The position numbers and the translations under genes were made by a program. From NCBI GenBank assembly GCA_963829055.1, contig CAWHHI010000020.1:800001-864000 (forward strand): DNA of 64,000 bases, read 5' to 3'. This DNA comes from an uncultured Gemmatimonadaceae bacterium. GTDB taxonomy: Bacteria; Gemmatimonadota; Gemmatimonadetes; Gemmatimonadales; Gemmatimonadaceae. The notes under the pieces were generated by a model. It saw only the letters and a list, made by a program, of their open reading frames with translations. It was not told the origin of the DNA and made no database searches. This document shows, in pieces, positions 1 through 64,000 of the stretch (its first letter is position 1; every line of letters begins with the position of its first letter).

Positions 1-1801
1 CCACGACCGTGAGCACGAGCGTGCCGCCGCCCGTATCGACACGCACGACGCGCCCGACGGCCGCGCCGTCCGACCACCAGCGACGCGCCGCCCACTCGTT
101 GACCATCGCCACGGGGACGGTCTCGTTGCGATCGCGCTCCGTGAACGCGCGACCACTCACCACCGGCACGCCTACCGTCGTGAAGTACGCGGGACTCACG
201 GACAACGCCGCCGGCGGCACGAGCGCGGCCGGTAACGGCTCCGCACTCCCATCGAGCGTCAGCATCGCGCGCCCGTCACGCTTCGGCAGCGGCACGTTCG
301 CGCGAATCGCGGCCGACGCCACGCCGGGCAATTGACCCAACTCGAGCAGAATGCGTTCGGTGACGGGCAGATACTTCTCCGGAACGCGCCACGAATGCGG
401 AAAGCTCGGTGCACCTGTGACGAGGCGGCCCGACTGAAACCCCAGGTTCACCTGCGCGAAGTGCAGAACGGTCCGCGCCATCAGTCCCGCACCGCTGAGC
501 AGCACCGTCGCGCAGGCGACCTGGCCGACGACGAAGAATCGCTGGGCTCGTCGCGCACGGTCGCCGCTGCCACCCGATGACGCGACGCGCAGGAGATGAT
601 GCACGTCTCTCCCGACGATGAGTCGCGCCGGGATGATGCTCACGACCGCTGCCGCGACGACCGCGAGCAGTGTCGCGAAGCCGAGGACGCGCGCGTCGAT
701 GCGGTAATCCATGCCGTCCGGCCGGAGCGACGAGAGCGCCGGCAGCGCGCTGAGCACGCCCAGTGCGGACCACGCGAGCGCGACGCCCAGGATGGCCGCC
801 GCCGCGACAATGATCGCGTTCTGGGTGAGCAGCACGCGCGTCAGGCGTCCGGCCCCGGCGCCTAACGCCGCGCGGATGGCGAACTCGCGCTGCCGGTTGA
901 GCGTCCGCGCCAGCACCAGGTTCGCGAGATTGGCGCAGGCGATGAGCAGGAGACAGCCGACGATCGCCCCGAAGATGAGGTCGTGCGATTGCGTGGATGA
1001 TGCGTACCGTTCCCGCAGCGGGTCGGCGACGAGCTTCGTTTTCTGCCCACGTGACGGCCCTGGTACGACCGCCGGCTCCACCGTCGCGAGCTCTGCGCGC
1101 ACGTCCGCGATCGTGCGGCCCGGCGCGAGCCGCGCGAACACCGAGACCGTGCGGATCGATGGACGAGTGCTCGGGTCGAGCGTCGGCACGGCGGAGAGCC
1201 AGAACTGCGATCCGCTCTCGAACCGGAAACCCGGCGGCATGATACCGACGACCGTGTAATGCGAATCGCTGAGCTTGACGTCCGTGCCGATGACGCCCGG
1301 ATCGCTGCCGAACTGCGACGTCCAGAGCTCGTGACTCAGCACCGTCGTGAGTGGAACGCCCAGCCGATCATCCTCGACGCTGAGCCCGCGTCCGATCAGC
1401 GGACGGACGCCGAGGAGCGGGAAGACGTTAGGCGACACGACGCCGCCGGTGACGAGGACCGCCTCGCCGTTGCGCATGAGCGACTTCGCGCCGCTCGTGT
1501 AGGCAGCTACGGCGTCGATGGAGCGGAACCGGCGCGTCGCGAGCACCTGCGCGTACGTCTCGTACGAGACGTTGCACGCCCCCCGGCACGGCGGTGCGGC
1601 CTCCGCGCCAGGGCCGGTGGGCGTCTCACCGAGAACGACGAGGCGATCCGCGTCGCGGAACGGGAGTGCGCGGAGTCGAACGGCGTCGATGACGCTGAAC
1701 GCGGCGACGCTCGCGCCAATGGCGATGGCGAGCGAGCCGACCGCGGTCGTGAGAAAACCGGGGCTCCGGAGGAGCGATCTGAGCGCGATGCGGAATGACA
1801 C
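1..1801 (-). CDS. ABC transporter permease, ADOP/MacB-FtsX type (3' end runs off the window)
   Basis: Not in the ORF track; read by hand from GTG 1801: VSFRIALRSLLRSPGFLTTAVGSLAIAIGASVAAFSVIDAV...LLLIACANLANLVLAR...REFAIRAALGAG...FVVGQVACATVLLSGAGL; frame stays open to base 1. Confidence 0.9.
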   Translation of the reverse strand, partial: MSFRIALRSLLRSPGFLTTAVGSLAIAIGASVAAFSVIDAVRLRALPFRDADRLVVLGETPTGPGAEAAPPCRGACNVSYETYAQVLATRRFRSIDAVAAYTSGAKSLMRNGEAVLVTGGVVSPNVFPLLGVRPLIGRGLSVEDDRLGVPLTTVLSHELWTSQFGSDPGVIGTDVKLSDSHYTVVGIMPPGFRFESGSQFWLSAVPTLDPSTRPSIRTVSVFARLAPGRTIADVRAELATVEPAVVPGPSRGQKTKLVADPLRERYASSTQSHDLIFGAIVGCLLLIACANLANLVLARTLNRQREFAIRAALGAGAGRLTRVLLTQNAIIVAAAAILGVALAWSALGVLSALPALSSLRPDGMDYRIDARVLGFATLLAVVAAAVVSIIPARLIVGRDVHHLLRVASSGGSGDRARRAQRFFVVGQVACATVLLSGAGLMARTVLHFAQVNLGFQSGRLVTGAPSFPHSWRVPEKYLPVTERILLELGQLPGVASAAIRANVPLPKRDGRAMLTLDGSAEPLPAALVPPAALSVSPAYFTTVGVPVVSGRAFTERDRNETVPVAMVNEWAARRWWSDGAAVGRVVRVDTGGGTLVLTVV

Positions 1802-1868
1802 GGGTTCTTCCTTCTACGTTCCCTGATGCCAGATTTTGCGACCGACCACCACTCTATGAGGGCACGAC

Positions 1869-2510
1869 ATGGCTTCGTCCGGAAGGGGCAAGCGGACCGC
1901 CGGGAAGACGGCGACCGGTACGACGAAACAAGCGGCGGCGAAGAAGACACCGGCGAAGCCGGCAGCCACCAAGCGGCCGGCGGTGAAGAAGGCCGCGAAG
2001 ACCGAAGGCGGCGCCTGGGCAGCCGTGTTCGCACCCCGTGCGCCCGGCGAGCGCAGGTACTGGCTCGTCAAGTCGGAGCCGAGCGTGTTCTCGTTCGACG
2101 ACCTGCTGGCGGCGAAGAACCGCACCACGCAGTGGGATGGCGTGCGAAACTTCGCCGCCCGCAACTTCATGCGCGACGGCATGAAGCTCGGCGACCAGGT
2201 CTTCTACTACCACTCGAGCGTGGACCCGCAGGTGATCGTCGGCGTGTGCGAGGTCGCGCGCGAGGCGTACCCCGACACCACCGCGTTCGACTCGAAGCAT
2301 CACGGCTACGACGAAGGCTCGGACCCTAACGAGCCGACGTGGGTCATGGTGGATCTGCGCGCCGTGGAGCCACTCGCGCGACCGGTGACGCTGTCCGAGA
2401 TCAAGGCGAAGCCCGAGCTCGCGGGGATGGCGCTCCTTCGCATCGGCCGGCTGTCGGTCACGCCCGTGACCGCGGACGAATGGAAGGTCATTCGCGCGAT
2501 GGGCGGGTAG
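1869..2510 (+). CDS. EVE domain protein with Lys/Ala/Thr-rich N-terminal extension
   Basis: YWLVKSEPSVFSFDDL...WDGVRNFAARNFMRDGMKLGDQVFYYHS...RLSVTPVT is the EVE (DUF55) signature. Confidence 0.92.
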   Translation: MASSGRGKRTAGKTATGTTKQAAAKKTPAKPAATKRPAVKKAAKTEGGAWAAVFAPRAPGERRYWLVKSEPSVFSFDDLLAAKNRTTQWDGVRNFAARNFMRDGMKLGDQVFYYHSSVDPQVIVGVCEVAREAYPDTTAFDSKHHGYDEGSDPNEPTWVMVDLRAVEPLARPVTLSEIKAKPELAGMALLRIGRLSVTPVTADEWKVIRAMGG

Positions 2511-2540
2511 CGGCGGCACCTTGTGACCTGCGCGCGGTAG

Positions 2541-3098
2541 TCAGCTCGCCACGGCTCGCTCCCAAAACTCGACAAGCTGCCGTTGCTCGAGCAGCCCGCG
2601 AAGGGCCTCATCATTGATCGTCGCGCGGCTGACGCGAACGATTCCAGCGATGTCACGAAGATGGCGATCGGAACCCGATTCCCGGTAATACTCGAGCTTC
2701 CGGACAATCACGTACTCCACTGGGGCAAACCAGACCGTGCTCCCAGCGATGTTTTCTGAGCGGCGTCGGTCGAATGCCCATGCGTGCAGCACGTCGGATG
2801 CGACGTAGAAATCGGCGCGCAGCGCCGTGTCGCGGTGAATGATGTTGAAATGGCCGAACTGAGGTCGCTGCCTTTCCTCGTCGATCACCTCGCGGGGCGG
2901 CACATAGTAGGACTCCTCCGGAAAGGCTCGTTCGAGGAGTACCGCGGCCTTCAGATCGAGGCGCACGACGAGATCAACATCATTCGTCATCCGGGGCTCG
3001 CCATACGCAATGGCTGCCACGGACCCCGTGATCATGTACTCGATGCCCGTCGAGTGTAGCGGCTGCAGGAGCAGCCGATATAGATCAGGTGCCGCCAT
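2541..3098 (-). CDS. Nucleotidyltransferase, MenT/DUF1814(AbiEii)-like putative toxin
   Basis: YMITGSVAAIAYGEPRMTNDVDLVV (GS...DxD motif) and C-terminal IVRKL...RHLRDI motif. Confidence 0.8.
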   Translation of the reverse strand: MAAPDLYRLLLQPLHSTGIEYMITGSVAAIAYGEPRMTNDVDLVVRLDLKAAVLLERAFPEESYYVPPREVIDEERQRPQFGHFNIIHRDTALRADFYVASDVLHAWAFDRRRSENIAGSTVWFAPVEYVIVRKLEYYRESGSDRHLRDIAGIVRVSRATINDEALRGLLEQRQLVEFWERAVAS

Positions 3099-3429: not shown

Positions 3430-6400
3430 ATGAAGCTGTCTGCCGCCCACCGTACGATATCCCGCGTCGTCGCCACGATTGCCGCGAGCGCGACGATCGC
3501 AACCGCACACGCTACTGCGCATGCGCAACGTCCGCGCGACCGGCGCGCGGATAGCGTCGCGACAACGGCCACACCGCACCTCACGTGGCCCGACAGCACG
3601 AGCTGGCGCCACTTGGGCCCCGCCGCGTTCGGCGGACGCATCGACGACATCGAAGCGGTCGCGGACGACCCGCGCATCATCTTCGTGGCCGCGGCGTCCG
3701 GCGGCGTGTTCCGCAGCGTGAACAACGGCGTGACGTGGGAGCCCGTGCTGGACCGCTACGCGAACACGCTCTCCGTCGGCGACATCGCGATTGCGCCGAG
3801 CGACCGGAATGTCGTGTGGGCCGGGATGGGTGAACCGAACAGCCGGCAGAGCTCCACCTGGGGCGACGGGGTGTATCGCTCGCTCGACGGCGGCACGACG
3901 TGGCAGCACATGGGGCTGCGCGAGACGCAGACCATCGGGCGCATCGTGATCGACCCGCGCGACCCGAACACGGTGTTCGTCGCCGCACTCGGGCACCTCT
4001 GGGGACCTAACGAGCAGCGCGGCCTGTACCGCACGAAGGACGGCGGCAAGACGTGGCAGAAGGTACTCGGCGTCGACGACCACACGGGCGCCGTGGACGT
4101 CGCCATCGATCGCGACGGCCGAACGCTGTTTGCGGCGACCTATCAACGCCGTCGCCGCGCATTCGGCTTCGCGGGCAGCGGTCCGGGCAGTGGGCTCTGG
4201 CGCTCGCTCGACGGCGGTGACACGTGGGAACGCCTCGGCAGCGCGAACGGCATTCCGACAGGGGACCTCGGCCGCATAGGCATCGCGCTCGCACCGAGTG
4301 AGCCCGACGTCGCGTACGCAGTGATCGAGAGCAGGAACGGCGGCGTCTTTCGCTCGAGCGATCGCGGACGAAGCTGGACGCGTCAGAGCAACACGAACCA
4401 GCGCGCCAGCTACTACAGTCAGATCCGTGTCGACCCTAACGATGCCAATCGTGTCTGGCTGCTCGCGACGAACATCTTCTCGTCCGTCGACGGTGGGAAG
4501 ACGTTCGTCGTGGACTCCGCGTCCGAGCGACACGTGCATCCCGATCACCACGCCCTGTGGATCGACCCGCGCGACTCCCGGCACATGTTGTTAGGCAACG
4601 ATGGGGGATTCTACGCGACGTACGACCGCGCCCTGCACTGGCAGTTCATCGACAACCTGCCGATCTCGCAGTTCTACGACATCGCCGTCGACAAGCGTGA
4701 TCCGTACTGGATCTACGGCGGCGCACAGGACAACGGACAGTGGGGGTTCCCGAGCCGGACGTTCTCGCGTGGCGGGATGACGAATGCCGACGTGATGAAC
4801 ACGGGCTATGCGGACGGATTCCAGGTGGCGGTCGATCAACGCGATCCTCAGCTCGTCTACACGGAGTCGCAGAACGGACGGCTCTATCTCGTGGACACGC
4901 GCACGCGGGAAGAACGCTGGCTCACGCCCTACCCTGCCGACGCGAAGGAGCGCTATCGCTTCAACTGGAACACGCCGCTGCTCGCGGTACCTAACGATTC
5001 GAGTCTCGTCTACTACGGCGCCCATCGCCTGCTGCAGACGCGAGACCGCGGCAACACGTGGCAGGCGGCGAGCCCCGACCTCACTACGAATCCCACCGAC
5101 TGGCGCCGGACGCCGCTCGGCCCCGGATTCCCGAACCGCGAGTCGCAATCGCGCGACGACGGCATCACCAACTTCGGGACGATCACGACTATCGGCACGA
5201 CGCCCAAAGCGCCGGGCACGGTGTACATCGGCACGGACGACGGTCAGGTGCAGATGTCGACCGACGCCGGAGCGCGCTGGACGAATATCACGAGCCGGTT
5301 CCGCCTGCCGGCTCCGCGGTGGGTCGGGAAAGTTCTCCCGTCGAGGGTGGACGGGCGCGTGGCGTACGTGACGTTCGACGGGCACAACGACGACGATCTC
5401 GCGCCGTACGTCTTCCGCTCGGGCGACGGCGGCGCGACGTGGACGTCGATCGCGGGCGACCTGCCTAACGGCCTAGTCGTTCGAACGATCGAGGAGCATC
5501 CGCGCAACCCGAAGCTGCTCTTCGTTGGCACTGAATTCGGGCTGTACTGGACGTTCGATGGCGGCCGCCACTGGACGCGCGCGTCGGGCAACATGCCGCC
5601 CGTGCGCGTCGACCGCATCATCCTGAACGACGACACGAACGACCTCATCGTCGCGACGCACGGGCGCGGCATTATCGTGCTCGATGACGTGAGCGCGCTC
5701 GAGGCTGGCGGCTCGCCCATAGCGCGCGGGGATGTCCGGCTGCTGCCGCCACGTTCCGCCACGGCGGTTTACGAGTGGCGCGACCTGCCGTGGGCCGCCA
5801 ACAACGCGTTCGTCGCGCCGAATCCGCCGGTAGGCACGTACATCACGTATGTCGTCGGCGAACCCCTAACGCCAACGACCACAGCGTCCGACGCCGACAC
5901 AGCACGACGCGGCGCGCCGGCTGTCGCGAAGATCCAGATCGTCGGACCGGACGGCCGAGTGGTGCGGGAGCTGGCTGGTCCAGGGACGGAGGGAGCACAT
6001 CGCGTGCTCTGGGACCTGCGGTCGGCAATGCCGTTCCTGCCAGCCGTGTCGGACTCTGGCTACTACGGCACGTACCGGGGACCGTTCGTGCTCCCCGGTC
6101 GCTACACGGCCAAGCTCACGCTCGGCGGAAAGGACCAATCGCAGCAGTTCGACGTCCGTCCCGACACCCGTGCGAATGCAACGACGACGGCGCTCGCCGC
6201 CCGCCACGCAATGTCCGCGCGCATCGCAGAGCTGAGCGGAACGTACGCGGCTGCGGCGAAGGCGTTCGCCGCGGTGGAGGGCGAGATGGGCCGGCTCAGC
6301 GCTGCCGTCAAGGCGACGCCTAACGCGGCTGGCAGCACGGATAGCGTCGTGGCGGACGCGGTCAGGAAGGTGGCCGAGCTCAAGCCGCGGTTCTCGCCGA

Positions 6401-6650: not shown

Positions 6651-7043
6651 AACTGCGGAACAGCGAGACAGGATTGCCAGGATTTGCAGGATTGACGGGA
6701 TAACTACTCTGCAGTCACGCTTGCTGTCGCCGCGAGCGGTGACGAGAGGAACGGCCGCTCGGGACGCTACTCCCGCTGAGGCCTGCTTCAGAAGACGTTA
6801 AGCCGATAACGAACGGCAACGGCAGGACAGGATGGCCAGGATGGACAGGATTGAACAGAGGCTCCGTGTCGCATTCAGGGCCCCTCCCGCAACGAGCCCG
6901 GAATGAGGGGAACCGCCGCTCGGGACGCCACTCTCCCTGAGATGTGTTCCTTCATTCGTTAGGCCCTGGCGCGACACGCTCCCGACGCCGAGGCGGTCAT
7001 CTTCTCAATCCTGCCAATCCTGGCAATCCTGTCCTGCAGTTGC
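6651..7043. mobile_element. MITE-like element family A (CAGGAT-triplet terminal inverted repeats); full copy ~6816-7043 preceded by an extra left arm
   Basis: Left arm gcaacggcaggacaggatggccaggatggacaggattga and right arm tcaatcctgccaatcctggcaatcctgtcctgcagttgc are imperfect inverted repeats; near-identical copy at 38766-38993. Confidence 0.75.
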
Positions 7044-7230: not shown

Positions 7231-7236
7231 GCTGAC

Positions 7237-8506
7237 TCACCTCCCCATCAAGGCAGCCAGCCGACGCTCGAGGAATCTCCGCTCCGGCTCCTGTCGCGTG
7301 AGGCCTAACGCGCGCTCGTAGGCAGCCATCGCGTCCTCCGTGCGCCCCAGGCGGCGACACAGGTCCGCGCGCGCCGAGTGGGCGAGGTAGTACTCCGTGA
7401 GCTCGCCGCGCGCGAGGATCGCGTCGATGAGCGCGAGGCCCGCCGCCGGTCCGTCGCGCATCGCGACCGCGACGGCGCGGTTCAACTCCACGACGGGGCC
7501 GGGATCCGTCCGGAGCAGGACGTCGTACAGTCCCACGATCTGCCGCCAGTCCGTCGCGCCGGCGTTAGGCGCATCGGCGTGCACGGCCGCGATCGCCGCC
7601 TGCAGCGTGTACGGGCCGAAACCCGGCGACGCGGCCGCCTGCTCCACGAGCCGACGACCCTCGTCGATCTGCACCCGATTCCACAGCGAGCGATCCTGCT
7701 CCTCGAGCAACAGCAGGTCGCCAGCGCTCGATGCCCGTGCCGCCCTGCGCGCGTCGTGCAGCAGCATGAGCCCGAGCAGTCCCACGGCCTCCGGCTCCGG
7801 CAGTAACTCCACCAGCAATCGCCCCAGCCGAATCGCTTCCGCGCACAGATCGTGACGCGTGAGCGACGTGCCTGACGAGGCCGAGTAGCCCTCGTTGAAC
7901 ACGAGGTAGATGACGTGCAGCACCGTGTCGAGGCGCTCGGGAAGCTCGGCACGCGCGGGGACCTGATATGGAATGCGCGCGTCGCGGATCTTCGCCTTCG
8001 CGCGCACGATGCGTTGCGCGAGCGTCGGCGCCGGGGTGAGGAACGCACGCGCGATCTCCTCCGTCGTCAGTCCGCACACCTCGCGCAGCGTCAGCGCGAT
8101 CTGCGCGTCGGCCGCGAGCGCGGGGTGACAGCAGGTGAAGATGAGGCGAAGTCGATCGTCGTCCACCTGTTCGTCGTCCACGTCAGGCGCGGGCGTGACG
8201 GCGCTCGCCAGGCGATCGGCGACCTCCGCGAGCGCGGCGTCGAACTTCGCGCGCCGACGCAACCGGTCGATCGATTTGAACCGGCCCGTGGACACGAGCC
8301 ACGCGCGCGGACTCGTCGGCACGCCTTCCAGTGGGCCACCGCTCTACGGCCGCCGCGAACGCGTCGTGCAGCGCCTCCTCCGCGAGATCGAAGTCCCCAA
8401 GCAGGCGGATGAGCGTCGCCAACACGCGACGCGACTCGGCCCGATAGACGGCGTCGATGACCGCACGCGTGTCCGCCGGCGGTCCCGGAGCAGCGGGAGT
8501 CGTCAC
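7237..8506 (-). CDS. ECF RNA polymerase sigma factor with C-terminal TPR-like extension (YciI-associated type), one frameshift near 8330
   Basis: YRAESRRVLATLIRLLGDFDLAEEALHDAF (ORF 8183-8506) continues into PRAWLVSTGR...DDRLRLIFTCCHPAL...YLVFNEGY (ORF 7237-8322). Confidence 0.9.
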
Positions 8507-8733
8507 GCGATAGCCGATCCGCCTAACGTGTCACGATGTGGTGATCCGTGCCCATTCGCGTCCATTCCACTCCCATGTATCACCGAGAAGACCACTGTCG
8601 TCGTTGCCATGCGCCAGCGGACGACGTCCACGACAGCGCAGGCTCGTCCTTGTTCCACCCGGTGTATAGGAGAAACCCGTCAGGCGCCGCCGCGGCTGGC
8701 GAGATGGGGCTGAGACACGGGCCCGGGGACGGC

Positions 8734-56228: not shown

Positions 56229-56821
56229 ATGCGCACCACCAGCAGCATCCGCACTCCACTCGTCGCGTCCGCCATTACCACCGTCGTGCTCGTCGCGATC
56301 GCGGCGTGCTCCAAGACCTCGGCCAGCAGCGATAGCACGGCTCACCGAATCCCACCGCGCCAGCCGTTACCGCGCAGTCGCGCAGTCTGCACAGTCCGCC
56401 GCGGCACAGCACGGCCGCAGCGCGACCTCCAGTGGGGCCCGGCTCCGGCGGTTCTTCCGCCGGGAGCCGAGATCGCGGTCCTGCAGGGTGACCCGAGCAA
56501 GGCCGAGGACGTTCACGCGTGCGCCTGCGAGCTTCCGAACGGCTACAAGATCCCGCCGCACACCCATCCCGACGGTCGAGAACGTGACCGTACTCGACCG
56601 GGACGTTTCTCGCCGGGATGGGCACCGACGTTCGACGAGTCGAAGCTGCAGCCGTTCGGTCGCGACGGCTTCCTCAGCGTCCCGGCCGAGCATGCGCACT
56701 ACGCCATGGCGCGCGGCGAGACGGTCGTGCAGGTCCACGGCCTCGGTCCGTTCGCGCTCACGTACGTGAATCCCGCCGACAATCCCGCAGCAGTGGCCGA
56801 TGATGCCGCGTCTGCGCCTAA
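56229..56821 (+). CDS. Cupin-domain lipoprotein (DUF4437-like), frameshifted; end approximate
   Basis: IAAC lipobox; [51 protein letters not shown]. Confidence 0.8.
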
Positions 56822-56884
56822 CGATACGAACCGTTTCAACCGACCGATTTCTAACAATGACTACTGACACCTACTACGATCCAT

Positions 56885-57786: not shown

Positions 57787-58496
57787 ATGTCGACCACCCG
57801 CACCATCGCCCGCCGCTTCGCGATGATCCGGCGATCTGCCGATCGTCGCGATCGCCACCGTCGCCACCGCCCGCGTCGCATCGCCGCCTACGGCAAGCCC
57901 GCGACGAGGCACGAGCACGACCACGAGCACGTCCACGCTCCGATCGAGCCGAGCAACCGCTGGCTCGACGGTCTCAAGGCGAAGCACGCGCCAGTTCTTC
58001 GATGCCCCGACGCCTAACGGCGGGATCGCGCTCGTGCACGTGATGAACTACTACGACACGTACAACAAGGCGTTCAACGTGAAGGACGCGGACATCGATG
58101 CCGTGCTCACGTTCTACGGCAGCACGACGTTCTACGGACTCAACGACGCCGCGTGGGCGAAGTACAAGCTCGGCGAGTTCCTCGAGATCGAACGATCCGA
58201 CCACCGGTAAGCCGGCGACGGCGAACCCGTGGCGCACCGCTCCGGTCGTCCTCGGCATGACGTTGCCGACGGCGAGCCTCGAGTCGCTGCACAAGCGCGG
58301 CGCGACGCTCATCCTGTGCAACAACGCGCTGACAGATCTTCTCCAGCCTGCTGGCCGCAGAAGCGCGGCCTGGACGCGAAGGCCGTGTACGCAGGATCTC
58401 AAGGCGAACATCCTGCCGGAAGTCGAGCTGGTGCCGGGGATGGTCGTGGCCGTCGAGCAGGCGCAGCGCGCCGGGCTGACGTATCACCGGCAGTAG
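57787..58496 (+). CDS. Exported DsrE-like fold hypothetical protein, frameshifted
   Basis: Fragments WLDGLK, VHVMNYYDTYNKAF, GLNDAAWAKYKLGE, NPWR, RGATLILCNNAL, VPGMVVAVEQAQRAG. Confidence 0.6.
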
Positions 58497-58659: not shown

Positions 58660-60444
58660 ATGAGACGCCTCCGACGCATCTGCTCGACGCTCCTATGGCT
58701 CGCCTGCCTAACGCCCGCTGTCCATCTCGGCGCCCAGGGCACTCGCGTCGACAGTCTGGACGCCTTCATCAAAACCCAGATGGCCCGTCACCAGATCCGA
58801 GGCCTGTCACTCGCGATCATCAACGGCGGCAAGATCGAAGTCACGCGCGCGTATGGTGTGGTCGACGAGACGTCCCACGCTCCCGTCACGCCCACCACGC
58901 TCTTCCAGGCCGGCTCGATCAGCAAACCCGTCTCGGCACTCGGCGCGCTGCATCTCGTGGAAGCCGGCAAGCTGTCGCTCGACGAGGATGTGAACGGCAA
59001 GCTCACGTCGTGGAAAGTTCCGGAGAACCGATTCACCGCCACGGAGAAGGTGACACTGCGGCGGCTGCTTTCGCATAACGCGGGCGTCACGGTCCACGGG
59101 TTCCCGGGTTACGACGTCTCCGTCGGCATGCCGACGTTGGTGCAAGTCCTCAATGGGACGCCGCCCGCGAACACACCGCCGATTCGTGTGGACACCACGC
59201 CGGGCGCGATCTGGCGCTACTCCGGCGGCGGCTTCACGATCATGCAGCAGATGATGATCGACCTGACGGGCCAGCCGTTTCCGCGCTACATGCAGCAGAC
59301 CGTGCTCGCTCCGATCGGGATGACGAACAGTTCCTTCGAGCAGCCGCAACCTCCCGCGCGCGCGGCGCTCACCGCTGCAGGCTTCTACGCGAACCGCACG
59401 CCGGTGAGTGGACGCTGGCATTTGTATCCCGAGATGGCCGCGGCGGGGCTGTGGACCACGCCAACCGACCTCGCGAAGTTCGCGATCGAGATCCAGGAGA
59501 CCCTCGCGGGGCGAGGGCACGGCGTGATCTCGCCGGCAATGGCGCGCCAGTACGTCACGGAACAGAAAGGCGGCAGTGGTCTCGGCATCGGCGTGGGCCC
59601 TGCAAAGCGCGGCACTCGATTCAGTCACGGTGGCCGCGACGAGGGATTTGACGCCTTGCTGACAGCGTTCTCCGAAACGGGCCAGGGCCTGGCCGTGATG
59701 ATCAACGCCAACGACAACTCCCGACTCATGGGAAGCATCGAGGCGTTCGTCGCGAAACTCTGGGAATGGCCGATCGAGATGGGTCCGGCGGCGACTCCCG
59801 CTGCGACCAGCGCTGTACCGATCGCGCCTACGCAGCTCGCGCGTTACGGCGGCTACTACGAGGCCGCGGAGAACAGCATGATGGCGCTGGTGCCTAACCC
59901 GAACGGCTCGGGAGTCCAGGTGCTCGTCGATGGACTCCCTGACGAGGATCTGCTGGCGATGGACAGCACGCATTTCGGCTCGAGCGCGCGGGCGTTCGAC
60001 GTCAGGTTCGCCGTGGATGCTCGCGGTGAAGTGAGCGCGGTGACGCTGCGTCCCGGCAATCCGCGCGAGCGTCGAGCCCCGCGTGTGGCGCCACTTCCGA
60101 GCTCACTCGAGCCAACGGCAGACCCCGACGCGGCGCTCACCACGCGAATCAAGTCGGCGATCGCGGCGTTGGGGCAAGGTGGAGCGGCGCTGTCCGCGGC
60201 GCGCGACATCACGCCGGGCGCGAAGAGCGACTTTGGTGGAGGGGCCGCCGTTGACCTGGCGCCGGCGGCGACGATGACGTACGTGGGCCAGGAAGACGTG
60301 GCGGGCCGCGGCATTCAACGCCACGGCAGCGAGGTCGCGCGCGTGCGGCTCTACCGAGTACAGACGCCCGCCGGTCCGCGTTACTTGCTGGTGCACCTCA
60401 CGTCCGACGGGAGCGTGACGGATATCGATATGGTGGAGAGGTAG
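58660..60444 (+). CDS. Secreted serine hydrolase, beta-lactamase (class C-like) family, with C-terminal extension
   Basis: FQAGSISK (SxxK), LLSHNAG, YSGGG, HGG. Confidence 0.9.
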   Translation: MRRLRRICSTLLWLACLTPAVHLGAQGTRVDSLDAFIKTQMARHQIRGLSLAIINGGKIEVTRAYGVVDETSHAPVTPTTLFQAGSISKPVSALGALHLVEAGKLSLDEDVNGKLTSWKVPENRFTATEKVTLRRLLSHNAGVTVHGFPGYDVSVGMPTLVQVLNGTPPANTPPIRVDTTPGAIWRYSGGGFTIMQQMMIDLTGQPFPRYMQQTVLAPIGMTNSSFEQPQPPARAALTAAGFYANRTPVSGRWHLYPEMAAAGLWTTPTDLAKFAIEIQETLAGRGHGVISPAMARQYVTEQKGGSGLGIGVGPAKRGTRFSHGGRDEGFDALLTAFSETGQGLAVMINANDNSRLMGSIEAFVAKLWEWPIEMGPAATPAATSAVPIAPTQLARYGGYYEAAENSMMALVPNPNGSGVQVLVDGLPDEDLLAMDSTHFGSSARAFDVRFAVDARGEVSAVTLRPGNPRERRAPRVAPLPSSLEPTADPDAALTTRIKSAIAALGQGGAALSAARDITPGAKSDFGGGAAVDLAPAATMTYVGQEDVAGRGIQRHGSEVARVRLYRVQTPAGPRYLLVHLTSDGSVTDIDMVER

Positions 60445-60530: not shown

Positions 60531-62981
60531 GTGTCTTCCCGTACCGCGGTGAAGGCCTTGGCCGACATCCACAACTTTCGCGAAGACCTCCGCTACGCGC
60601 TGCGGCGCATTCGCCGCGAGCCCGCATTCGCGACGTTCGCCGTCCTCATCATGGCGCTCGGGGTCGCCGCCGTGACGTCCGTGTTCAGCGTGATGAGCCC
60701 GCTCATGCTGCGGCCGTTGCCGTTCGCCAAGCAGGAGCGACTCGTCTGGATCGCAGGCTCGGCGTCAGGAGGAATGTCCTCCGTCACGTCGCGCACGTCC
60801 AACCTGCGGGACTTCCGGCTCTACACGCGGTCGTTCGACGCGTTGACGGCGTATAACGCGTTCTTCGATTACGACAGCTACAACCTCGTCGGCGATGGGC
60901 CGCCGGAACGCCTGATCGGCGTCGGCGTCGCGCAGAACTTCCTGAGCGTGCTCGGCGTGCAGCCGCGGCTCGGGCGCAACTTCACGGACGAGGAAAGCGT
61001 GTGGGGTGGGCGCCGAGCGGTGATCCTCACGCACGGGTTCTGGACGCGGCGGTACGCGGCGGACCCGAAGATCGTCGGGAAGGCGATCACGCTGAACGGC
61101 GCGCCTAACGAGGTCGTCGGCGTCCTCCCGGCGTCGTTCGACTTCGCGTCCGCCTTCGCGCCGGCGTCACGCGTCGATTTTCTGATGCCGTACCCCATCA
61201 GCGACGAGACCGACCGATGGGGGAACACGATCTCGATGATCGGAGTCCTCAAGCCGGGCGTGAGCGTCGCCAGCGCGCAGGCCGATCTCGACCGCGTCAT
61301 CGCGCAGCTCAAACAGGCGGATCCGAATCGCTGGGGGCTGAATGCGGTCGTCGTCGGGCTCCGCGACCACCTCGCGGGAGGATTCCGCGCGCCACTGCTG
61401 GTGTTGGCCGTCGCGGCTGCGTTGGTGCTGGCCGTCGCGTGCGCGAATCTGTCGAACCTGCTGCTGGTCCGCGCGCAACAGCGCACGCGGGAGATGAGCG
61501 TCCGCAGCGCGTTAGGCGCGACGCGCGGCCGGCTCATCGCCCAGCTGTTGACCGAGAGCGTGATTCTCGCGGCGTGCGGCGGTGCCGTCGGTACCGTGCT
61601 CGCGTTCTGGATCACGAGGACGCTTGCCGGAACGTCGGCGGTGAGCATCCCGATGCTGCGGACGATCTCCGTGGACGCATCGGCGTTAGGCTTCACGCTC
61701 GCGATCACGCTGCTCACGGGACTGGTCGTGGGCATCGCGCCGGCGCTGCAGGTGTCCCAGGGGCGCGAGTCGGCGACACTGAACGACGCCAGCCGCGGCT
61801 CGAGTGACGGTCCGCGCAGCGCCGCGGTGCGCGAGGTGCTGGTCGTCGGTGAAGTCGCGCTCGCGTTCGTGCTGCTCGTGGGTGGAGGACTGCTCCTGCG
61901 GAGCTTCGTCCGCCTGCTCGACGTCGACCTCGGCTTCCAGCCCGCGGGCACGGTCATGTGGCAGCTGGACGCCGGACGTTCCTTCCCTAACGACACGGTG
62001 CGCATCGCGTACTACGAGGGCATGCTCGCCCGCGTTCGCGAGGTGCCGGGCGTCGATATCGCTGGCGTGTCCGACACGCCACCACTCGGCAGGAATCGCG
62101 AGTGGGTCATTCGCGCGAAAGGCGCTGCCTACGAGAAGGACAAGATGCAGAACGTCTTTCCGCGTCTCATCGACAGTGAGTACCTCCGGGCGATGCGAAT
62201 CCCGCTGCTCGCTGGCCGGCAGTTCGGTCCGAGCGACAAGATGACGTCCACGAAGGTCGTCATCATCAACAAGACCGCGGCCGAGAAACTCTTCCGCGGG
62301 GCGAATGCCGTCGGCCGAACAGTCACCAATGGCTCCTGGGAGTACGAGGTCGTCGGCGTCGTCGGCGACGTGCGGCACCAGGCGCTCGATCAGGAGTCGG
62401 GGATGGAGATGTACCTCCTGTACTCGCAGGTGACCGACTTCAGCACGCTGGCGATGGTCGTGCGTTCGCGCGTTCCGGCAACGGCCCTCGCGGGGAGCGT
62501 CGCGGCGGCGCTGCGTGCCGCGGATCCGACGCTGCCGGTCAACGATTACCGGACGCTCGATGCCGTGGTCGACCGCGCGGTCTCGCCGCGTCGGTTCATC
62601 CTGCTCATCCTCGGCGCGTTCGCCGGGACGGCGTTGCTGCTGGCCGCGCTCGGGATCTACGCGGTGCTGTCGTACTCGGTGAGCCAGCGGCTCCGCGAGA
62701 TCGGCATCCGCATGGCACTGGGCGAGTCGGCGTCGCGCGTTAGGCAGCGCGTGGTACGGCGGACGGTTCTACTCGCAGGTACCGGAGTCGCGATAGGAGG
62801 GATAGTGTCGTTCGTCGCGTCGGGTCTGCTGCGCTCACTGCTCTACGGCATCGGCCCGACGGACGCGATCTCGTTCGTCGGCACCGCGATCGTGCTGGTG
62901 GTGGTCTCGGCGTTCGTCGGCTACCTGCCGGCGCGCCGCGCGTCGAAGACGGATCCGATCGTGGCGCTGCGCTCGACGTGA
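60531..62981 (+). CDS. ADOP/MacB-FtsX type ABC permease
   Basis: DLRYALRR, ACANLSNLLL, REIGIRMALG, PARRASKTDPIVALR. Confidence 0.93.
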   Translation: MSSRTAVKALADIHNFREDLRYALRRIRREPAFATFAVLIMALGVAAVTSVFSVMSPLMLRPLPFAKQERLVWIAGSASGGMSSVTSRTSNLRDFRLYTRSFDALTAYNAFFDYDSYNLVGDGPPERLIGVGVAQNFLSVLGVQPRLGRNFTDEESVWGGRRAVILTHGFWTRRYAADPKIVGKAITLNGAPNEVVGVLPASFDFASAFAPASRVDFLMPYPISDETDRWGNTISMIGVLKPGVSVASAQADLDRVIAQLKQADPNRWGLNAVVVGLRDHLAGGFRAPLLVLAVAAALVLAVACANLSNLLLVRAQQRTREMSVRSALGATRGRLIAQLLTESVILAACGGAVGTVLAFWITRTLAGTSAVSIPMLRTISVDASALGFTLAITLLTGLVVGIAPALQVSQGRESATLNDASRGSSDGPRSAAVREVLVVGEVALAFVLLVGGGLLLRSFVRLLDVDLGFQPAGTVMWQLDAGRSFPNDTVRIAYYEGMLARVREVPGVDIAGVSDTPPLGRNREWVIRAKGAAYEKDKMQNVFPRLIDSEYLRAMRIPLLAGRQFGPSDKMTSTKVVIINKTAAEKLFRGANAVGRTVTNGSWEYEVVGVVGDVRHQALDQESGMEMYLLYSQVTDFSTLAMVVRSRVPATALAGSVAAALRAADPTLPVNDYRTLDAVVDRAVSPRRFILLILGAFAGTALLLAALGIYAVLSYSVSQRLREIGIRMALGESASRVRQRVVRRTVLLAGTGVAIGGIVSFVASGLLRSLLYGIGPTDAISFVGTAIVLVVVSAFVGYLPARRASKTDPIVALRST

Positions 62982-62984
62982 CGA

Positions 62985-63089
62985 TGTCATCCGAGGAGCG
63001 CCAGCGACGAGGGACCTTCTGTGACGTCATCGTGGCCCGACCGGTTACAATCACGTTCGAGAAGATCCCTCGCTGCCGCTCGGGATGAC
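62985..63089. repeat. REP-like family B variant
   Basis: tgtcatccgagg...gagggacctt...aagatccctc...ctcgggatgac. Confidence 0.75.
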
Positions 63090-63130
63090 CCGGCCTCCTT
63101 CCTACGGCCTCGTTAAACTCAGTCGGAACA

Positions 63131-64000
63131 ATGCTCGCACCTCTTGCAGTGGTTATTCAACTGGCAGCGCTGGGCCACTCGCTGGCGCCAGTGCATTGTC
63201 GCTTCCATGAAGCGAACCAGCTCGTGCATCAATGGGAGGGCTCCTGCGGTCGCCTGTTCGGCCAGGAGCCGAAAATCAAGCTCAAGCCGGCGAAGGCCAT
63301 CGTCAGCGGCCAATGGCGGAAGGATGCCGAGCCCACTGCGGTATGGGCCGGTAGCCTGATTTACGACGACTCGAGCACGGAGATCGAGCTCGAGCTGTAC
63401 GCTGGAGGATCGGGGGTGTTGCGGACCGAGGACGGCTGGTACGCGGTAAGCGCGTTCAAGGAGGCCGGGAGCCAGCTGACGTTCGAGCTCGATACGGCGC
63501 GGGAGATCGCGCCTAACGAACGTCGATCGCGAGATCGTCAGGCGAGCCGACGCCCTCCTCTCATCCACAGCCGTGTGGAATCGCGCGGACAACCGGCAGT
63601 GCCCGGCATCGGCCACCACCTGGAGCATTTACTGTGCAATGGAGCAGGGCGCCATCGAGGCCACGTGCGGAGCGCACCACCGGCGGCCAGCGATGCAGGT
63701 CGTTCGCGGCAATCATCGACGAACGCACCGCGAGCCGCGACTACGCGCATCGATTGATGGATTACAACAACGATTCCACCACGACGCTCGCGGACGTGCA
63801 CCGGCTCTTCCGCGAGGCGTTGGCGCGCATGAATGGCTCTACCGATCAGCCCATGCCTAACGCCCCACTGTGCCCGTCGGTTTCGTCGCCGGCAATTACG
63901 GCGGCCGACATCAGCATCGTCGAGCGCGCGCGCGAGATGCTCGGGTCGCCCGATCAGTGGAACCGGAATGACACGCAGAAGTGTCCGAGCGGGGCGAAAA
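63131..64000 (+). CDS. Secreted hypothetical protein with a tandemly repeated Cys-containing domain (possibly DUF6197-like); frameshifted, runs off the window
   Basis: WNRADNRQCP..ATTWSIYCA...HHRRPAMQVVR...RLMDYNND, then a second unit IVERAREMLGSPDQWNRNDTQKCP. Confidence 0.6.

What the first reader, a model, noticed from the sequence alone, without database searches (positions are those of the whole stretch)
861..63862. Highly iterated non-palindromic motif (G)CCTAACG / CGTTAGG(C), about 1 per kb, written into coding sequence in several frames
Seen: a hand count gives 65 exact CCTAACG/CGTTAGG copies (39 on +, 26 on -), e.g. 861, 1426, 2325, 4006, 7304, 11529, 14913, 20634, 25110, 28813, 32344, 37407, 44748, 49219, 54371, 61510, 63856. 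54 of them extend to the octamer GCCTAACG and T never occupies that position. A zero-order estimate at ~69% GC gives about 7 heptamers and 2-3 octamers. Most copies are inside genes and force AT-rich codons this genome otherwise avoids: GCG-TTA-GGC (A-L-G, in the ALGA motif of all three ADOP permeases at 861, 11529, 61510), CCT-AAC (P-N), CTA-ACG (L-T), GTT-AGG (V-R). Frame independence points to a DNA-level rather than protein-level cause. Established: comparable signals are HIP1 in cyanobacteria, DUS/USS uptake sequences, Chi, KOPS and nucleoid-protein sites; this motif matches none that I know. Inference: a lineage-specific genome-wide signal, such as a DNA-uptake tag, a binding site for a chromosome-organising protein, or a methylation/repair-driven motif. 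No cognate protein is identifiable in the window.
Basis: partly seen in the sequence, partly recalled or inferred. Interest (0 to 1): 0.93.

Follow-up and report, generated by a model that had tools for sequence, protein, structure and literature searches.

The report
Genome-wide eight-letter DNA word in Gemmatimonadaceae
This soil bacterium and many of its relatives have written the eight-letter DNA word GCCTAACG thousands of times across their genomes, against their own codon habits, in a pattern most like the uptake tags some bacteria use to recognise their own DNA; the word is also the core of the recombination sites of their integrons.

Summary
The window holds 65 CCTAACG (39+/26-; 54 with 5' G, T never) against 2.95 expected. 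Genome-wide, GCCTAACG is the most over-represented octamer: 5,004 copies in 7.78 Mb, 49x an order-2 Markov and 20x an amino-acid-preserving codon-shuffle expectation. It fills all four stop-free frames and intergenic DNA, has no strand or replication polarity, shows a ~300-bp self-exclusion zone, and is absent from rRNA and from three foreign blocks. It is retained between congeners 2.5x better than random octamers, yet turns over, partly by synonymous changes. By hand tally it is enriched in about 31 of 77 Gemmatimonadaceae genera, up to 1.3/kb, with one genus split on/off, and almost nowhere outside the family. The profile matches DNA uptake sequences (DUS/USS), my best reading at about 0.45. 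Uptake itself is untested, no receptor was found, and competence genes do not co-distribute with the word. The word equals the R-box (RYYYAAC/GTTRRRY) of the integron attC sites of this lineage. Two earlier reports of this scan found the same on other genomes.

The parts
861..867 (+). GCCTAACG; antisense in permease, GCG-TTA-GGC (A-L-G)
1426..1432 (-). GCCTAACG; sense TCG-CCT-AAC-GTC (SPNV)
2325..2331 (+). heptamer only (5' C); sense CCT-AAC (PN)
4006..4012 (+). heptamer only (5' A); sense CCT-AAC (PN), BNR/sortilin-like gene
4435..4441 (+). heptamer only (5' C); sense CCT-AAC (PN), same gene
4990..4996 (+). heptamer only (5' A); sense CCT-AAC (PN), same gene
5464..5470 (+). GCCTAACG; sense CTG-CCT-AAC-GGC (LPNG), same gene
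5865..5871 (+). heptamer only (5' C); sense CTA-ACG (LT), same gene
6319..6325 (+). GCCTAACG; sense CCT-AAC (PN), same gene
6957..6963 (-). GCCTAACG; intergenic
7304..7310 (+). GCCTAACG; antisense GCG-TTA-GGC (ALG)
7563..7569 (-). GCCTAACG; sense CCT-AAC (PN)
8522..8528 (+). GCCTAACG; intergenic
11529..11535 (+). GCCTAACG; on the permease strand reads GCG-TTA-GGC (A-L-G); my ORF caller mis-assigned the strand here
12063..12069 (+). GCCTAACG; antisense GTT-AGG (VR)
14913..14919 (+). GCCTAACG; sense CTA-ACG (LT); also in G002
16574..16580 (-). GCCTAACG; sense CTA-ACG (LT); kept in G002-G004, GCCTGATG in G001
19385..19391 (-). heptamer only (5' A); sense CCT-AAC; full octamer in G003/G004
20634..20640 (+). 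GCCTAACG; antisense TCG-TTA-GGC (SLG), ATP-ligase gene; absent in G003/G004
21374..21380 (+). GCCTAACG; antisense GTT-AGG (VR); kept in 5 of 6 genomes
21934..21940 (+). GCCTAACG; antisense GTT-AGG (VR); lost (TAA>TGA etc.) in G001, G002, G005
24779..24785 (+). GCCTAACG; sense CCT-AAC (PN); kept in all 6 genomes
25110..25116 (-). GCCTAACG; antisense GCG-TTA-GGC (ALG); absent in G003/G004
25656..25662 (-). GCCTAACG; antisense ACG-TTA-GGC (TLG); kept in all 6 genomes
26365..26371 (+). GCCTAACG; sense CTA-ACG (LT); kept in all 6 genomes
26805..26811 (+). heptamer only (5' C); gene edge
27109..27115 (-). GCCTAACG; sense CTA-ACG (LT)
27979..27985 (-). GCCTAACG; sense CTA-ACG (LT)
28813..28819 (-). 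GCCTAACG; sense CTA-ACG (LT); GCCTGACG in G002, G005
30707..30713 (-). GCCTAACG; gene edge
32344..32350 (+). GCCTAACG; intergenic by my calls; kept in 5 of 6 genomes
32475..32481 (+). GCCTAACG; G000-specific gain (congeners GCCTGGCG, CGCTGGCA ...)
33636..33642 (+). GCCTAACG; gene edge
34559..34565 (+). GCCTAACG; antisense GCG-TTA-GGC (ALG); also in G003/G004
35412..35418 (-). heptamer only (5' A); intergenic
35917..35923 (+). heptamer only (5' C); intergenic
36559..36565 (-). GCCTAACG; antisense TCG-TTA-GGC (SLG)
37407..37413 (-). GCCTAACG; sense CCT-AAC (PN)
37846..37852 (+). GCCTAACG; antisense GTT-AGG (VR)
38908..38914 (-). GCCTAACG; intergenic
39530..39536 (+). GCCTAACG; gene edge
40076..40082 (-). 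GCCTAACG; gene edge
41188..41194 (-). GCCTAACG; sense CTA-ACG (LT)
41867..41873 (+). GCCTAACG; sense CCT-AAC (PN)
42204..42210 (-). GCCTAACG; sense CCT-AAC (PN)
43312..43318 (+). GCCTAACG; intergenic
44748..44754 (-). GCCTAACG; antisense GTT-AGG (VR)
46367..46373 (+). GCCTAACG; gene edge
46704..46710 (-). GCCTAACG; sense CTA-ACG (LT)
47778..47784 (-). GCCTAACG; sense CCT-AAC (PN)
49219..49225 (+). heptamer only (5' A); antisense GTT-AGG (VR)
49725..49731 (+). GCCTAACG; intergenic
52125..52131 (+). GCCTAACG; antisense GCG-TTA-GGC (ALG)
54371..54377 (-). GCCTAACG; antisense GCG-TTA-GGC (ALG)
55720..55726 (-). GCCTAACG; antisense GCG-TTA-GGC (ALG)
56817..56823 (+). GCCTAACG; sense CCT-AAC (PN)
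58013..58019 (+). GCCTAACG; gene edge
58707..58713 (+). GCCTAACG; sense CTA-ACG (LT)
61104..61110 (+). GCCTAACG; sense CCT-AAC (PN), permease gene
61510..61516 (-). GCCTAACG; antisense GCG-TTA-GGC (A-L-G), permease gene
61684..61690 (-). GCCTAACG; antisense GCG-TTA-GGC (ALG), permease gene
61986..61992 (+). heptamer only (5' C); sense CCT-AAC (PN), permease gene
62738..62744 (-). GCCTAACG; antisense GTT-AGG (VR), permease gene
63512..63518 (+). GCCTAACG; intergenic
63856..63862 (+). GCCTAACG; sense CCT-AAC (PN)

Best explanation
GCCTAACG is a DNA-level 'self' word that accumulates by molecular drive linked to DNA exchange, and it works like the uptake sequences of Neisseriaceae (DUS) and Pasteurellaceae (USS). 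The proposed mechanism is inferred, not shown. A component of the type IV pilus/competence apparatus binds DNA carrying the word preferentially. Fragments carrying it are therefore taken up and recombined more often, so new copies arising by point mutation, often synonymous, spread and old ones are kept. Copies pile up everywhere that coding or RNA function tolerates them, until mutation pressure towards GC and functional constraint balance the drive. What is shown is the pattern: extreme enrichment, frame and strand neutrality, short-range redundancy, absence from foreign DNA and rRNA, excess retention with turnover, and lineage restriction. What is inferred is the uptake bias itself and the receptor. 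The word is identical to the R-box of the lineage's integron attC sites. That suggests the binding specificity is tied to integron cassettes, but how is open.
For: (1) Scale: 5,004 octamers in 7.78 Mb (0.64/kb), the top 8-mer under Markov orders 0-3, 49x the order-2 and 19x the order-3 expectation. One-base variants are 3-500x rarer and the flanks carry almost no information. (2) DNA-level: it is present in all four stop-free frames (1298/980/657/538) and in intergenic DNA (1165 of 5004); the two frames that would give TAA/TAG hold 12 and 0. CDS hold 3,504 copies against 176 after codon shuffling, and 1,308 of 3,064 TTA codons lie inside the word. (3) No polarity: 2457+/2547-; Spearman rho with GC skew is -0.15 over 145 windows, while gene orientation tracks skew at rho 0.44. 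(4) Redundancy at short range: pair density is 0.22 of expectation below 100 bp, 0.45 at 100-200, 0.77 at 200-300 and ~1 beyond 500 bp. In Haemophilus two USS within 100 bp add no uptake, and even spacing is the expected outcome of drive (PMC7811141 passages). (5) Three blocks of 31-50 kb are free of the word. The one tested carries housekeeping genes but matches congeners only at 67-71% in scattered pieces, against 79-87% syntenic elsewhere. rRNA (6.2 kb) has 0 copies where ~5 are expected. DUS/USS are likewise lacking in recent acquisitions and rRNA (PMC2397512 and PMC7811141 passages). (6) Retention and turnover: a copy is kept in a congener in 102 of 209 site views (49%) against 19.4% for random octamers in the same alignments. 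Non-motif alleles are GC-rich near-matches differing mainly in the central TAA. 23 of 37 G000-specific copies leave the protein unchanged. (7) Gain, not relic: in the split genus g56, two rich genomes share 6 of 7 sites, and four poor genomes show 0 of 24 motif cells and 1 of 24 one-mismatch ghosts. (8) Machinery: PilM, PilT, ComEC and a pilT-linked ComEA-like gene were each found in 31 of 31 relatives; DprA, pilins and a PilQ secretin are in G000.
Against: No uptake or transformation experiment exists for this family. In my literature search the listed papers on natural transformation or uptake sequences held no mention of Gemmatimonadetes, and the one listed paper naming the phylum was an unrelated forestry study. 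Competence and pilus genes are as present in word-poor as in word-rich genomes, so unlike cyanobacterial HIP1 (bioRxiv 10.64898/2026.06.24.733823, abstract and section 20 read) there is no co-distribution signal. The pilin-pilM locus has the same architecture in rich and poor genomes, and no receptor candidate emerged. G000's own comEA-like gene is truncated, 60-81 aa against 170-260 aa in relatives; this may be an assembly indel. There are no dialects: the same word tops the ranking in all six other genomes sampled where it is enriched (five rich, one intermediate), whereas DUS has dialects. The ~300-bp exclusion zone is shorter than typical uptake fragments. There are no flanking AT tracts as in USS and no terminator-type inverted pairs as in DUS. 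The exact identity with the attC R-box is not predicted by a plain uptake model.
Confidence: 0.45

Rival explanations
1. Integron-linked word. The sites are recognised by the integron integrase, or by another protein with the same R-box specificity, and their spread is a consequence of integron biology and not of uptake bias. For example, they could be landing or synapsis half-sites, or the drive could act on single-stranded DNA that IntI also handles.
For: GCCTAAC/GTTAGGC is a perfect RYYYAAC/GTTRRRY (PMC3053210 passages). In word-poor relatives the few copies cluster in co-oriented cassette arrays with full attC anatomy: R''-L''..L'-R', 95-108 nt. G000 has an integrase (C20:208041-208958, 265.7 bits) and an adjacent array whose attC sites carry CCTAACG...CGTTAGG. 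The absence of dialects among the six other genomes sampled where the word is enriched fits a specificity pinned by a conserved recombination site.
Against: Solo copies have no L-box, no flanking conservation and no inverted partner at attC distance. An integrase over the family cut-off is found in 4 of 9 word-rich and 14 of 22 other relatives; G014, at 1.25 copies/kb, has only a three-piece broken one. Integrase cleavage of a chromosomal site would, if anything, favour loss of the site. No known integron process writes an octamer into genes.
Confidence: 0.13
2. Binding site of a chromosome-organising or nucleoid protein, kept by selection at thousands of places.
For: Sharp 8-bp definition, uniform density with variance/mean 1.01 per 10 kb, a ~300-bp exclusion zone that could be a footprint or spacing rule, and retention above background.
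Against: Selection on each of 5,000 sites would be very weak. The on/off split within one genus, and the density range from 0.05 to 1.3/kb among genera, are odd for an essential organiser. There is no polarity towards ori/ter. No candidate protein is known.
Confidence: 0.15
3. Repair- or methylation-coupled conversion. A sequence-specific methyltransferase or mismatch nuclease corrects near-matches towards the word, in the manner of very-short-patch repair or as once proposed for HIP1.
For: Gains are point changes from near-matches (GCCGAGCG, GCCTGACG, GCCGAACG) concentrated in the central three bases. The on/off distribution would fit gain or loss of a single enzyme gene.
Against: Vsr (PF03852) was not found in any of the 9 word-rich genomes searched; 3 of 31 had it, all word-poor, and completeness of the rich ones is 77-93%. 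Known repair drives give only modest enrichment (recalled, not from a call). An intragenomic mechanism does not predict the exclusion zone. Methyltransferases were not surveyed.
Confidence: 0.12
4. Chi-like or other nuclease-protecting self marker that spares own DNA from a helicase-nuclease.
For: High density in own DNA and absence from foreign blocks. Such a marker would also bias which incoming fragments survive and so act as a drive.
Against: Known Chi and KOPS words are skewed with replication, and this word is not. Enrichment is far above what I recall for Chi (recalled, not from a call). RecC was not found in G000, which is 86% complete; AddAB/AdnAB were not searched.
Confidence: 0.07

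Closest known systems
DNA uptake sequences: DUS of Neisseriaceae, USS of Pasteurellaceae
   Same: A short non-palindromic word at about 1 per kb and tens of times above expectation; both orientations; inside genes in every permissible frame; lacking in recently acquired DNA and rRNA; no benefit from close pairs; conserved above background with lineage-specific gains; restricted to one family (literature passages).
   Different: Uptake bias is untested and no receptor is known. The word is 8 bp without informative flanks, against 9-12 bp plus AT tracts in USS. There are no terminator-type inverted pairs and no dialects in the sampled genera. Density ranges continuously from 0.05 to 1.3/kb, with on/off states inside a genus. 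It occurs in a soil phylum with no record of competence that I could find. The word equals the integron attC R-box.
Integron attC recombination sites (inverse core RYYYAAC, core GTTRRRY)
   Same: Identical seven bases, GCCTAAC/GTTAGGC, and in this lineage also the eighth, G. Genuine attC arrays with this R-box exist in G000 and in word-poor relatives.
   Different: The roughly 5,000 dispersed copies are bare octamers. They have no L-boxes, no palindrome and no co-orientation, and they are not next to an integrase. Integrase presence does not track word density.
HIP1 (GCGATCGC) of cyanobacteria
   Same: A hyper-abundant octamer written through genes, conserved across a large clade, and recently proposed as an uptake recognition sequence (bioRxiv 10.64898/2026.06.24.733823, abstract and section 20 read).
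   Different: HIP1 is palindromic and is a methyltransferase site, and its abundance co-distributes with type IV pilus and competence genes. Here the word is asymmetric and those genes are universal in rich and poor genomes alike.
Chi and KOPS/AIMS polar motifs
   Same: Over-represented oligomers of 5-8 bp read by DNA-processing machines.
   Different: Those are skewed to the leading strand and only modestly enriched (recalled). This word has no skew and is enriched 20-50x.

Membership tests
DNA uptake sequence (DUS/USS type) | Short word at hundreds to thousands of copies, far above compositional expectation | tested here: met
   5,004 copies against 102-297 expected; 3,504 against 176 after codon shuffling
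DNA uptake sequence (DUS/USS type) | Both orientations, no replication polarity, all permissible reading frames plus intergenic DNA | tested here: met
   2457+/2547-, rho -0.15 with GC skew; four frames and intergenic DNA populated, stop frames empty
DNA uptake sequence (DUS/USS type) | Under-represented in recently acquired DNA and in rRNA | tested here: met
   Three 31-50 kb blocks with 0 copies, the one tested foreign to the genus; 0 copies in 6.2 kb of rRNA
DNA uptake sequence (DUS/USS type) | Shared by related species, conserved above background, with turnover | tested here: met
   49% retention against 19.4% for random octamers; gains and losses in the site matrix; 31 of 77 genera enriched by hand tally
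DNA uptake sequence (DUS/USS type) | Cells preferentially take up DNA that carries the word | not testable with these tools
   Needs uptake or transformation assays; no report found
DNA uptake sequence (DUS/USS type) | Cognate sequence-specific receptor (ComP in Neisseria) | tested here: inconclusive
   Pilins are present, but the pilin-pilM locus looks the same in rich and poor genomes; no candidate
DNA uptake sequence (DUS/USS type) | Competence machinery encoded | tested here: met
   ComEC, PilM, PilT and a ComEA-like gene each in 31 of 31 relatives; DprA and PilQ in G000; G000's comEA copy is truncated
Integron attC site | Sequence fits RYYYAAC / GTTRRRY | tested here: met
   GCCTAAC / GTTAGGC; consensus from PMC3053210 passages
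Integron attC site | Imperfect palindrome R''-L''...L'-R' of 57-141 bp, co-oriented arrays beside an integrase | tested here: not met
   Met only by about a dozen copies at G000 C20:190.5-207.2 kb. The dispersed copies have no flank conservation and no inverted partner
Chi / KOPS polar motif | Strand skew co-oriented with replication | tested here: not met
   919+/975- in skew>0 windows and 1382+/1387- in skew<0 windows
HIP1-type iterated palindrome | Palindromic methyltransferase site | tested here: not met
   The word is not a palindrome (read from the sequence); methylation not testable here
VSP-repair-driven word | Vsr endonuclease present in genomes that carry the word | tested here: not met
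   PF03852 found in 0 of 9 word-rich genomes searched and in 3 of 31 overall

The most novel reading that the evidence does not exclude
The uptake (or other DNA-exchange) apparatus of these Gemmatimonadaceae is tuned to the R-box of integron attC sites. Gene cassettes, which carry one co-oriented copy every ~600 bp, would then be naturally tagged for capture. The chromosome-wide spread of the same word in about 30 genera would be the by-product of that specificity, driven by recombination among kin. This would be a mechanistic coupling of natural transformation and integrons, written into whole genomes.
Probability: 0.15. Interest if true: 0.92.

Novelty: new variant of a known kind. Interest (0 to 1): 0.82.

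Why it matters
From the abstracts listed, sequence-biased DNA uptake is established for two families of host-associated Proteobacteria, and it has recently been proposed for cyanobacterial HIP1 (bioRxiv preprint read). A third or fourth independent case would make the origin of uptake specificity a comparative question. This one sits in a widespread soil and rhizosphere family; the stretch is held in 18 runs of 17 studies. Densities run from none to 1.3 per kb, and there is an on/off split inside one genus. The split genus and the density gradient supply natural contrasts for finding the responsible gene. The identity with the attC core offers a concrete, testable link between two major routes of gene acquisition, transformation and integrons. 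On the practical side, the word is a sharp marker of own versus foreign or mis-binned DNA in these genomes, and it distorts codon usage: 43% of all TTA codons lie inside it.

Tried and rejected
Replication or transcription polarity: none. Inverted pairing of solo copies as hairpins or terminators: none. Tandem repeats as the cause of co-oriented copies in G021: none; they are attC arrays. Extended attC-like flank in G000's dispersed copies: the L-box words of the G021 arrays occur 0-1 times in G000. Dialects or alternative hyper-abundant words in relatives: none at comparable scale in 40-80 kb samples of G008, G017, G018, G029 and G030. Integrase co-distribution: none. Vsr: not found in rich genomes. 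ComEC, PilM, PilT and ComEA-like co-distribution: universal, so uninformative. Pilin-locus comparison across the g56 split plus G000, G014, G008 and G017: no presence/absence difference. Canonical ComEA model TIGR00426 in G000: no hit; the Pfam HHH_3 model finds a truncated copy. RecC: not found. Import of new copies on divergent recombination tracts: flank identity 0.774 at unique sites against 0.785 at random, p=0.10, so no support; the shift to 4-5 differences (21.5% against 12.2%) is modest. Literal search for the octamer in papers: 478 papers hold the string, and the 20 listed were primer or oligonucleotide coincidences. Searches for Gemmatimonas with over-represented octamers, and for uptake sequences beyond the two known families, listed no paper on this word. 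Max-order Markov ranking is blind to the word because its sub-words are equally inflated; lower orders were used instead. My first ORF caller was too strict, with 53% coverage, and was replaced (79.5%). It remains crude: it mis-assigns the strand at 11529, and its frames at relative-only sites are biased, some containing stops. Unbiased gene-content comparison of rich and poor genomes could not be done, because only G000 can be laid whole. Complex prediction, structure prediction and protein database searches were not used.

Full report
OBSERVATION. The window is G000:C20:800001-864000 of a 7,784,024-bp, 20-contig genome, 85.9% complete with 3.95% contamination. CCTAACG/CGTTAGG occurs exactly 65 times, at the coordinates given, 39 on + and 26 on -. 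Dinucleotide-preserving shuffles give a mean of 2.95 and a maximum of 9. The 5' neighbour is G in 54, C in 6, A in 5 and T in 0 of 65. The three permease sites read A-L-G as GCG-TTA-GGC.

GENOME-WIDE STATISTICS. The heptamer occurs on every contig. There are 6,391 heptamers and 5,004 octamers, and GCCTAACG is the top-ranked 8-mer under Markov orders 0 to 3: 297, 131, 102 and 258 expected. A maximal-order model does not see it, because all its sub-words are inflated too. The word is sharply defined. The seven core bases were fixed by the search, G precedes in 78%, the flanks carry at most 0.17 bit per position, and single-base variants are 3- to 500-fold rarer.

I called genes with a crude GC3-based ORF caller (7,229 ORFs, 79.5% of the genome). 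On those calls the octamer sits in all four frames that do not create a stop:
- xCG-TTA-GGC: 1,298
- xxG-CCT-AAC-G: 980
- xGC-CTA-ACG: 657
- C-GTT-AGG-C: 538
The two stop-creating frames hold 12 and 0. A further 1,165 copies are intergenic, 348 lie at ORF edges and 6 lie in overlaps.

Shuffling synonymous codons within each gene, with protein and codon usage kept, leaves a mean of 176 of the 3,504 CDS copies over 20 replicates (maxima 150 and 72 for the two orientations). 1,308 of the genome's 3,064 TTA codons lie inside the word.

ANATOMY OF THE DISTRIBUTION. Orientation is balanced (2457/2547) and is unrelated to GC skew (rho -0.15 over 145 windows of 50 kb) or to gene orientation (rho -0.10). 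Gene orientation itself follows GC skew (rho 0.44), so the skew does carry a replication signal. Adjacent copies share orientation in 2,589 of 4,984 cases, and there is no excess of inverted pairs at any short distance. Counts per 10 kb have variance/mean 1.01.

Copies avoid one another at short range. Pair density is 0.22 of expectation below 100 bp, 0.45 at 100-200 bp, 0.77 at 200-300 bp, about 0.9 up to 500 bp and 1 beyond, with no periodicity.

Three blocks have no copy at all: C6:5440-55038, C11:1-44055 and C6:591808-623330. They encode ordinary housekeeping proteins such as FtsK, tryptophan synthase, DAHP synthase and glutamine synthetase. The one I tested matches congeners only in scattered pieces at 67-71% identity, whereas true genus DNA is syntenic at 79-87%. 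These blocks are therefore foreign to the genus: chimeric or mis-binned joins, or large recent acquisitions.

The rRNA genes carry no copy in 6.2 kb, where about 5 are expected. They comprise an operon at C16:606491-611677 and a lone 16S at C12:102893-104443.

EVOLUTION. I mapped 176 kb of congener DNA (G001-G005) onto G000. That gave 51 shared sites and 107 sites present in one genome only. A copy is thus retained in 102 of 209 site views (49%), against 19.4% for random octamers in the same alignments. Flanks are no more divergent than average, 0.774 against 0.785.

Where one genome lacks the word, it has a GC-rich near-match such as GCCGAGCG, GCCTGACG, GCCGAACG or GTCTCACG. The outer bases agree in 72-95% of cases and the central TAA in only 45-58%. 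Many changes are synonymous, for example Leu CTC/TTA, Val GTC/GTT and Arg CGG/AGG. 23 of 37 G000-specific copies leave the local peptide unchanged, against 40% and 17.5% for random windows with two and three differences. The reverse class gave 6 of 32, but my frames are biased there. The P-N frame usually costs an amino-acid change.

A site matrix over window 14-34 kb in six genomes shows three copies kept in all six (24779, 25656, 26365), a G000-specific gain (32475), a G003/G004-specific copy, and losses by TAA>TGA.

In genus g56 the rich genomes G066 and G166 share 6 of 7 comparable copies. Four poor genomes have the word in 0 of 24 covered cells and a one-mismatch form in 1 of 24, and their alleles agree with each other. 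This points to gain in the rich subclade, not decay in the poor one.

PHYLOGENETIC RANGE. Record titles of the nearest Lhr-helicase loci place the genome in Gemmatimonadaceae. Nine of those 80 named loci have 0.23-1.1 copies/kb, and the others have 0 or at most 1-3 copies (up to 0.42/kb on very short loci).

Among 31 relatives, all 7 genomes of the window's genus hold 2,501-5,112 copies, G014 holds 6,360 in 5.1 Mb, and G010 holds 605. Most others hold 4-65, below the reversed-word control.

I searched 401 family genomes in 77 genera and read the table by eye, not by script. The word exceeds the control in most sampled members of 31 genera, and 76 genomes have at least 1,000 copies. Density forms a continuum from about 0.05 to 1.34/kb; g9 is at 1.15-1.34 and G205 has 7,821 copies in 6.1 Mb. 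Genus g56 is split, with six genomes at 0.87-0.97/kb and eight with 4-66 copies. In g55, ten genomes are rich and one (G300, 64% complete) has 86 copies.

Outside the family, 3 of 175 genomes exceed the control, all in genus g110 of the sister family. None of the 70 genomes of other orders and classes has more than 70 copies. G030 of a third family has 345 against a control of 147.

The tool included unpublished genomes in these tallies (G013, G051, G052, G150, G264, G282, G309, G453, G480, G549). The listing of genus g42 as enriched rests on G052 alone; no other claim depends on them individually.

No dialects were seen. The same word tops the ranking in sampled DNA of G001, G003, G004, G005, G014 and G010, and the poor genomes sampled have no comparable word of their own.

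THE INTEGRON IDENTITY. In word-poor relatives the few copies cluster, co-oriented, about 500-650 bp apart. Each heads a 95-108-nt element of the form GCCTAAC-G...L''...loop...L'...GTTAGGC, which is a classical attC site, so these are integron cassette arrays. attC sites are bounded by the inverse core RYYYAAC and the core GTTRRRY (PMC3053210, passages read).

G000 itself has an integron integrase at C20:208041-208958 (TIGR02249, 265.7 bits against a cut-off of 265). Next to it is an array at about C20:190.5-207.2 kb whose sites carry CCTAACG ... CGTTAGG. The genome-wide word is therefore the R-box of the lineage's own recombination sites.

The dispersed copies are not attC sites. They have no flanking conservation, no partner and no L-box words. 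The integrase also does not track the word: it is over the cut-off in 4 of 9 rich and 14 of 22 other relatives, and it is broken in G014. A chance coincidence of eight bases with a site used by elements of the same clade seems unlikely to me, but I cannot name the link.

MECHANISM. The profile matches point by point what is described for DUS and USS. It has similar density, strand neutrality and use of all tolerated frames, and it is lacking in new DNA and rRNA. Close pairs give no gain. Conservation comes with lineage-specific gains, some too different from the homologous site for single point mutations. These comparisons rest on the abstract and passages of PMC2397512 and on passages of PMC7811141.

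Population-genetic reasoning from established knowledge (Maughan et al. 2010, as cited in PMC7811141; not read by me) favours drive over selection for thousands of weakly effective sites. I therefore commit to biased DNA uptake with recombination as the most likely cause, at about 0.45.

The apparatus is encoded. ComEC, PilM, PilT and a pilT-linked ComEA-like gene were each found in 31 of 31 relatives, and DprA, a pilin cluster and PilQ are in G000. It is equally present in poor genomes, and the pilin locus looks alike in both. So nothing here identifies the specificity factor. G000's own comEA-like ORF is truncated. Several ORFs in this assembly end in what looks like out-of-frame text, so indel errors are likely.

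The rivals are an integrase-linked process, a nucleoid-protein site, a repair or methylation drive (Vsr not found in 0 of 9 rich genomes) and a Chi-like marker (no skew; no RecC). They are set out with their tests in the Rival explanations section.

NOT AN ARTEFACT. The stretch window:20001-30000 is held at half or more of its sampled words in 18 runs of 17 studies, from rhizosphere, soil and freshwater sediment. Contig pieces with zero differences from other studies cover the copies at 20633 (X5), 21933, 24778 and 25110 (X2). None of the 40 best-supported differences listed, of 351, falls in any of the 11 copies. These are assembled contigs, not raw reads.

PRIOR WORK. The following searches listed no paper describing this word as a genomic signal: the octamer string (478 papers hold the string, only the 20 listed seen), Gemmatimonadetes with natural transformation or uptake sequence, Gemmatimonas with over-represented octamers, and uptake sequences beyond the two known families. 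Subscription journals and supplements are outside what I could see.

Two earlier AI reports of this scan (e1-7736871 and e1-7736539) found the same word in other Gemmatimonadaceae genomes, at lower density, and read it the same way, including the attC identity. I reached both points on this genome before reading them. They are not independent evidence.

New here:
- the highest-density genus-level case studied in detail;
- the exclusion zone;
- the matched retention control;
- the family- and phylum-wide map, with the split genus;
- the gain polarity in that genus;
- the negative co-distribution results.

VERDICT. This is a real, strong, lineage-restricted DNA-level signal. It works most like an uptake sequence, but membership of that class is unproven because uptake bias and a receptor are untested. 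It is a new variant of a known kind, with an unexplained identity to the integron core site.

Noticed in passing
G000 C20:190500-208958 (outside the window; locus L009 covers 198000-216000): Chromosomal integron: an integrase on the minus strand at 208041-208958, with its 3' end facing a cassette array of at least 8 attC-like sites. An inverted GTTAGGCGGC...GCCGCCTAAC pair lies at 207951-207979 next to the integrase.
   Followed up: partly
L001 (G021:C95:1-20000), L002 (G019:C3:1-9000), L003 (G021:C80:1-6500): Large co-oriented cassette arrays (23, 8 and 7 attC sites) in word-poor relatives. The L003 array abuts a partial integrase at G021:C80:6419-7300.
   Followed up: partly
G000 C6:5440-55038, C11:1-44055, C6:591808-623330: Three word-free blocks at or near contig ends carrying housekeeping genes. 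The first matches congeners only at 67-71% in fragments. They are likely chimeric or mis-binned DNA, or large acquisitions. A D5_N primase-like gene sits at C6:7509-8513 near one boundary.
   Followed up: partly
window 16089-16352 and 33372-33630: A ~200-260-bp element matching in both orientations at dozens of places in congener G001, at 72-85% identity. It looks like a MITE or palindromic repeat family.
   Followed up: no
L156 (G066:C2) 15590-15713: A pair of ~46-bp inverted repeats with dozens of copies at ~90% identity in G166; a small dispersed repeat family of the rich g56 subclade.
   Followed up: no
window 3430-6621: A BNR/sortilin-like gene holds six co-oriented copies 400-550 bp apart, five of them as x-P-N-x and four without the 5' G. 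A repeated protein motif may contribute some heptamer-only copies.
   Followed up: no
G000 C12:102893-104443 and C16:606491-611677: A lone 16S rRNA gene without adjacent 23S, in addition to a complete 16S-23S-5S operon. This could be an unlinked rRNA gene or an assembly/binning issue.
   Followed up: no
G000 C12:494245-494424; C8:360651-361147; C16:947580-948092: The comEA-like ORF is truncated, a second secretin is split over three frames, and a pilin has an out-of-frame-looking tail. These are probable indel errors or pseudogenes, so gene-integrity calls in this assembly are unsafe.
   Followed up: partly
window 16728-21538: An Lhr-type helicase followed by an ATP-dependent DNA ligase, forming a repair operon. 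It is conserved in synteny in all five congeners examined.
   Followed up: partly
L147-L149 (G029): Moderately over-represented words CCCAGTCC/CCCCAGTC/ACTGGGGA (19-27 copies against 2-4 expected in 60 kb) and CTCTTACC (10 against 0.3) in a word-poor relative; nature unknown.
   Followed up: no
G000 genome-wide: Other mildly over-represented words under a maximal-order model: TGTCATCC (660 against 326) and CTCGGAAT/TCGGAATGA (909 against 542; 767 against 483). They possibly come from a dispersed repeat.
   Followed up: no
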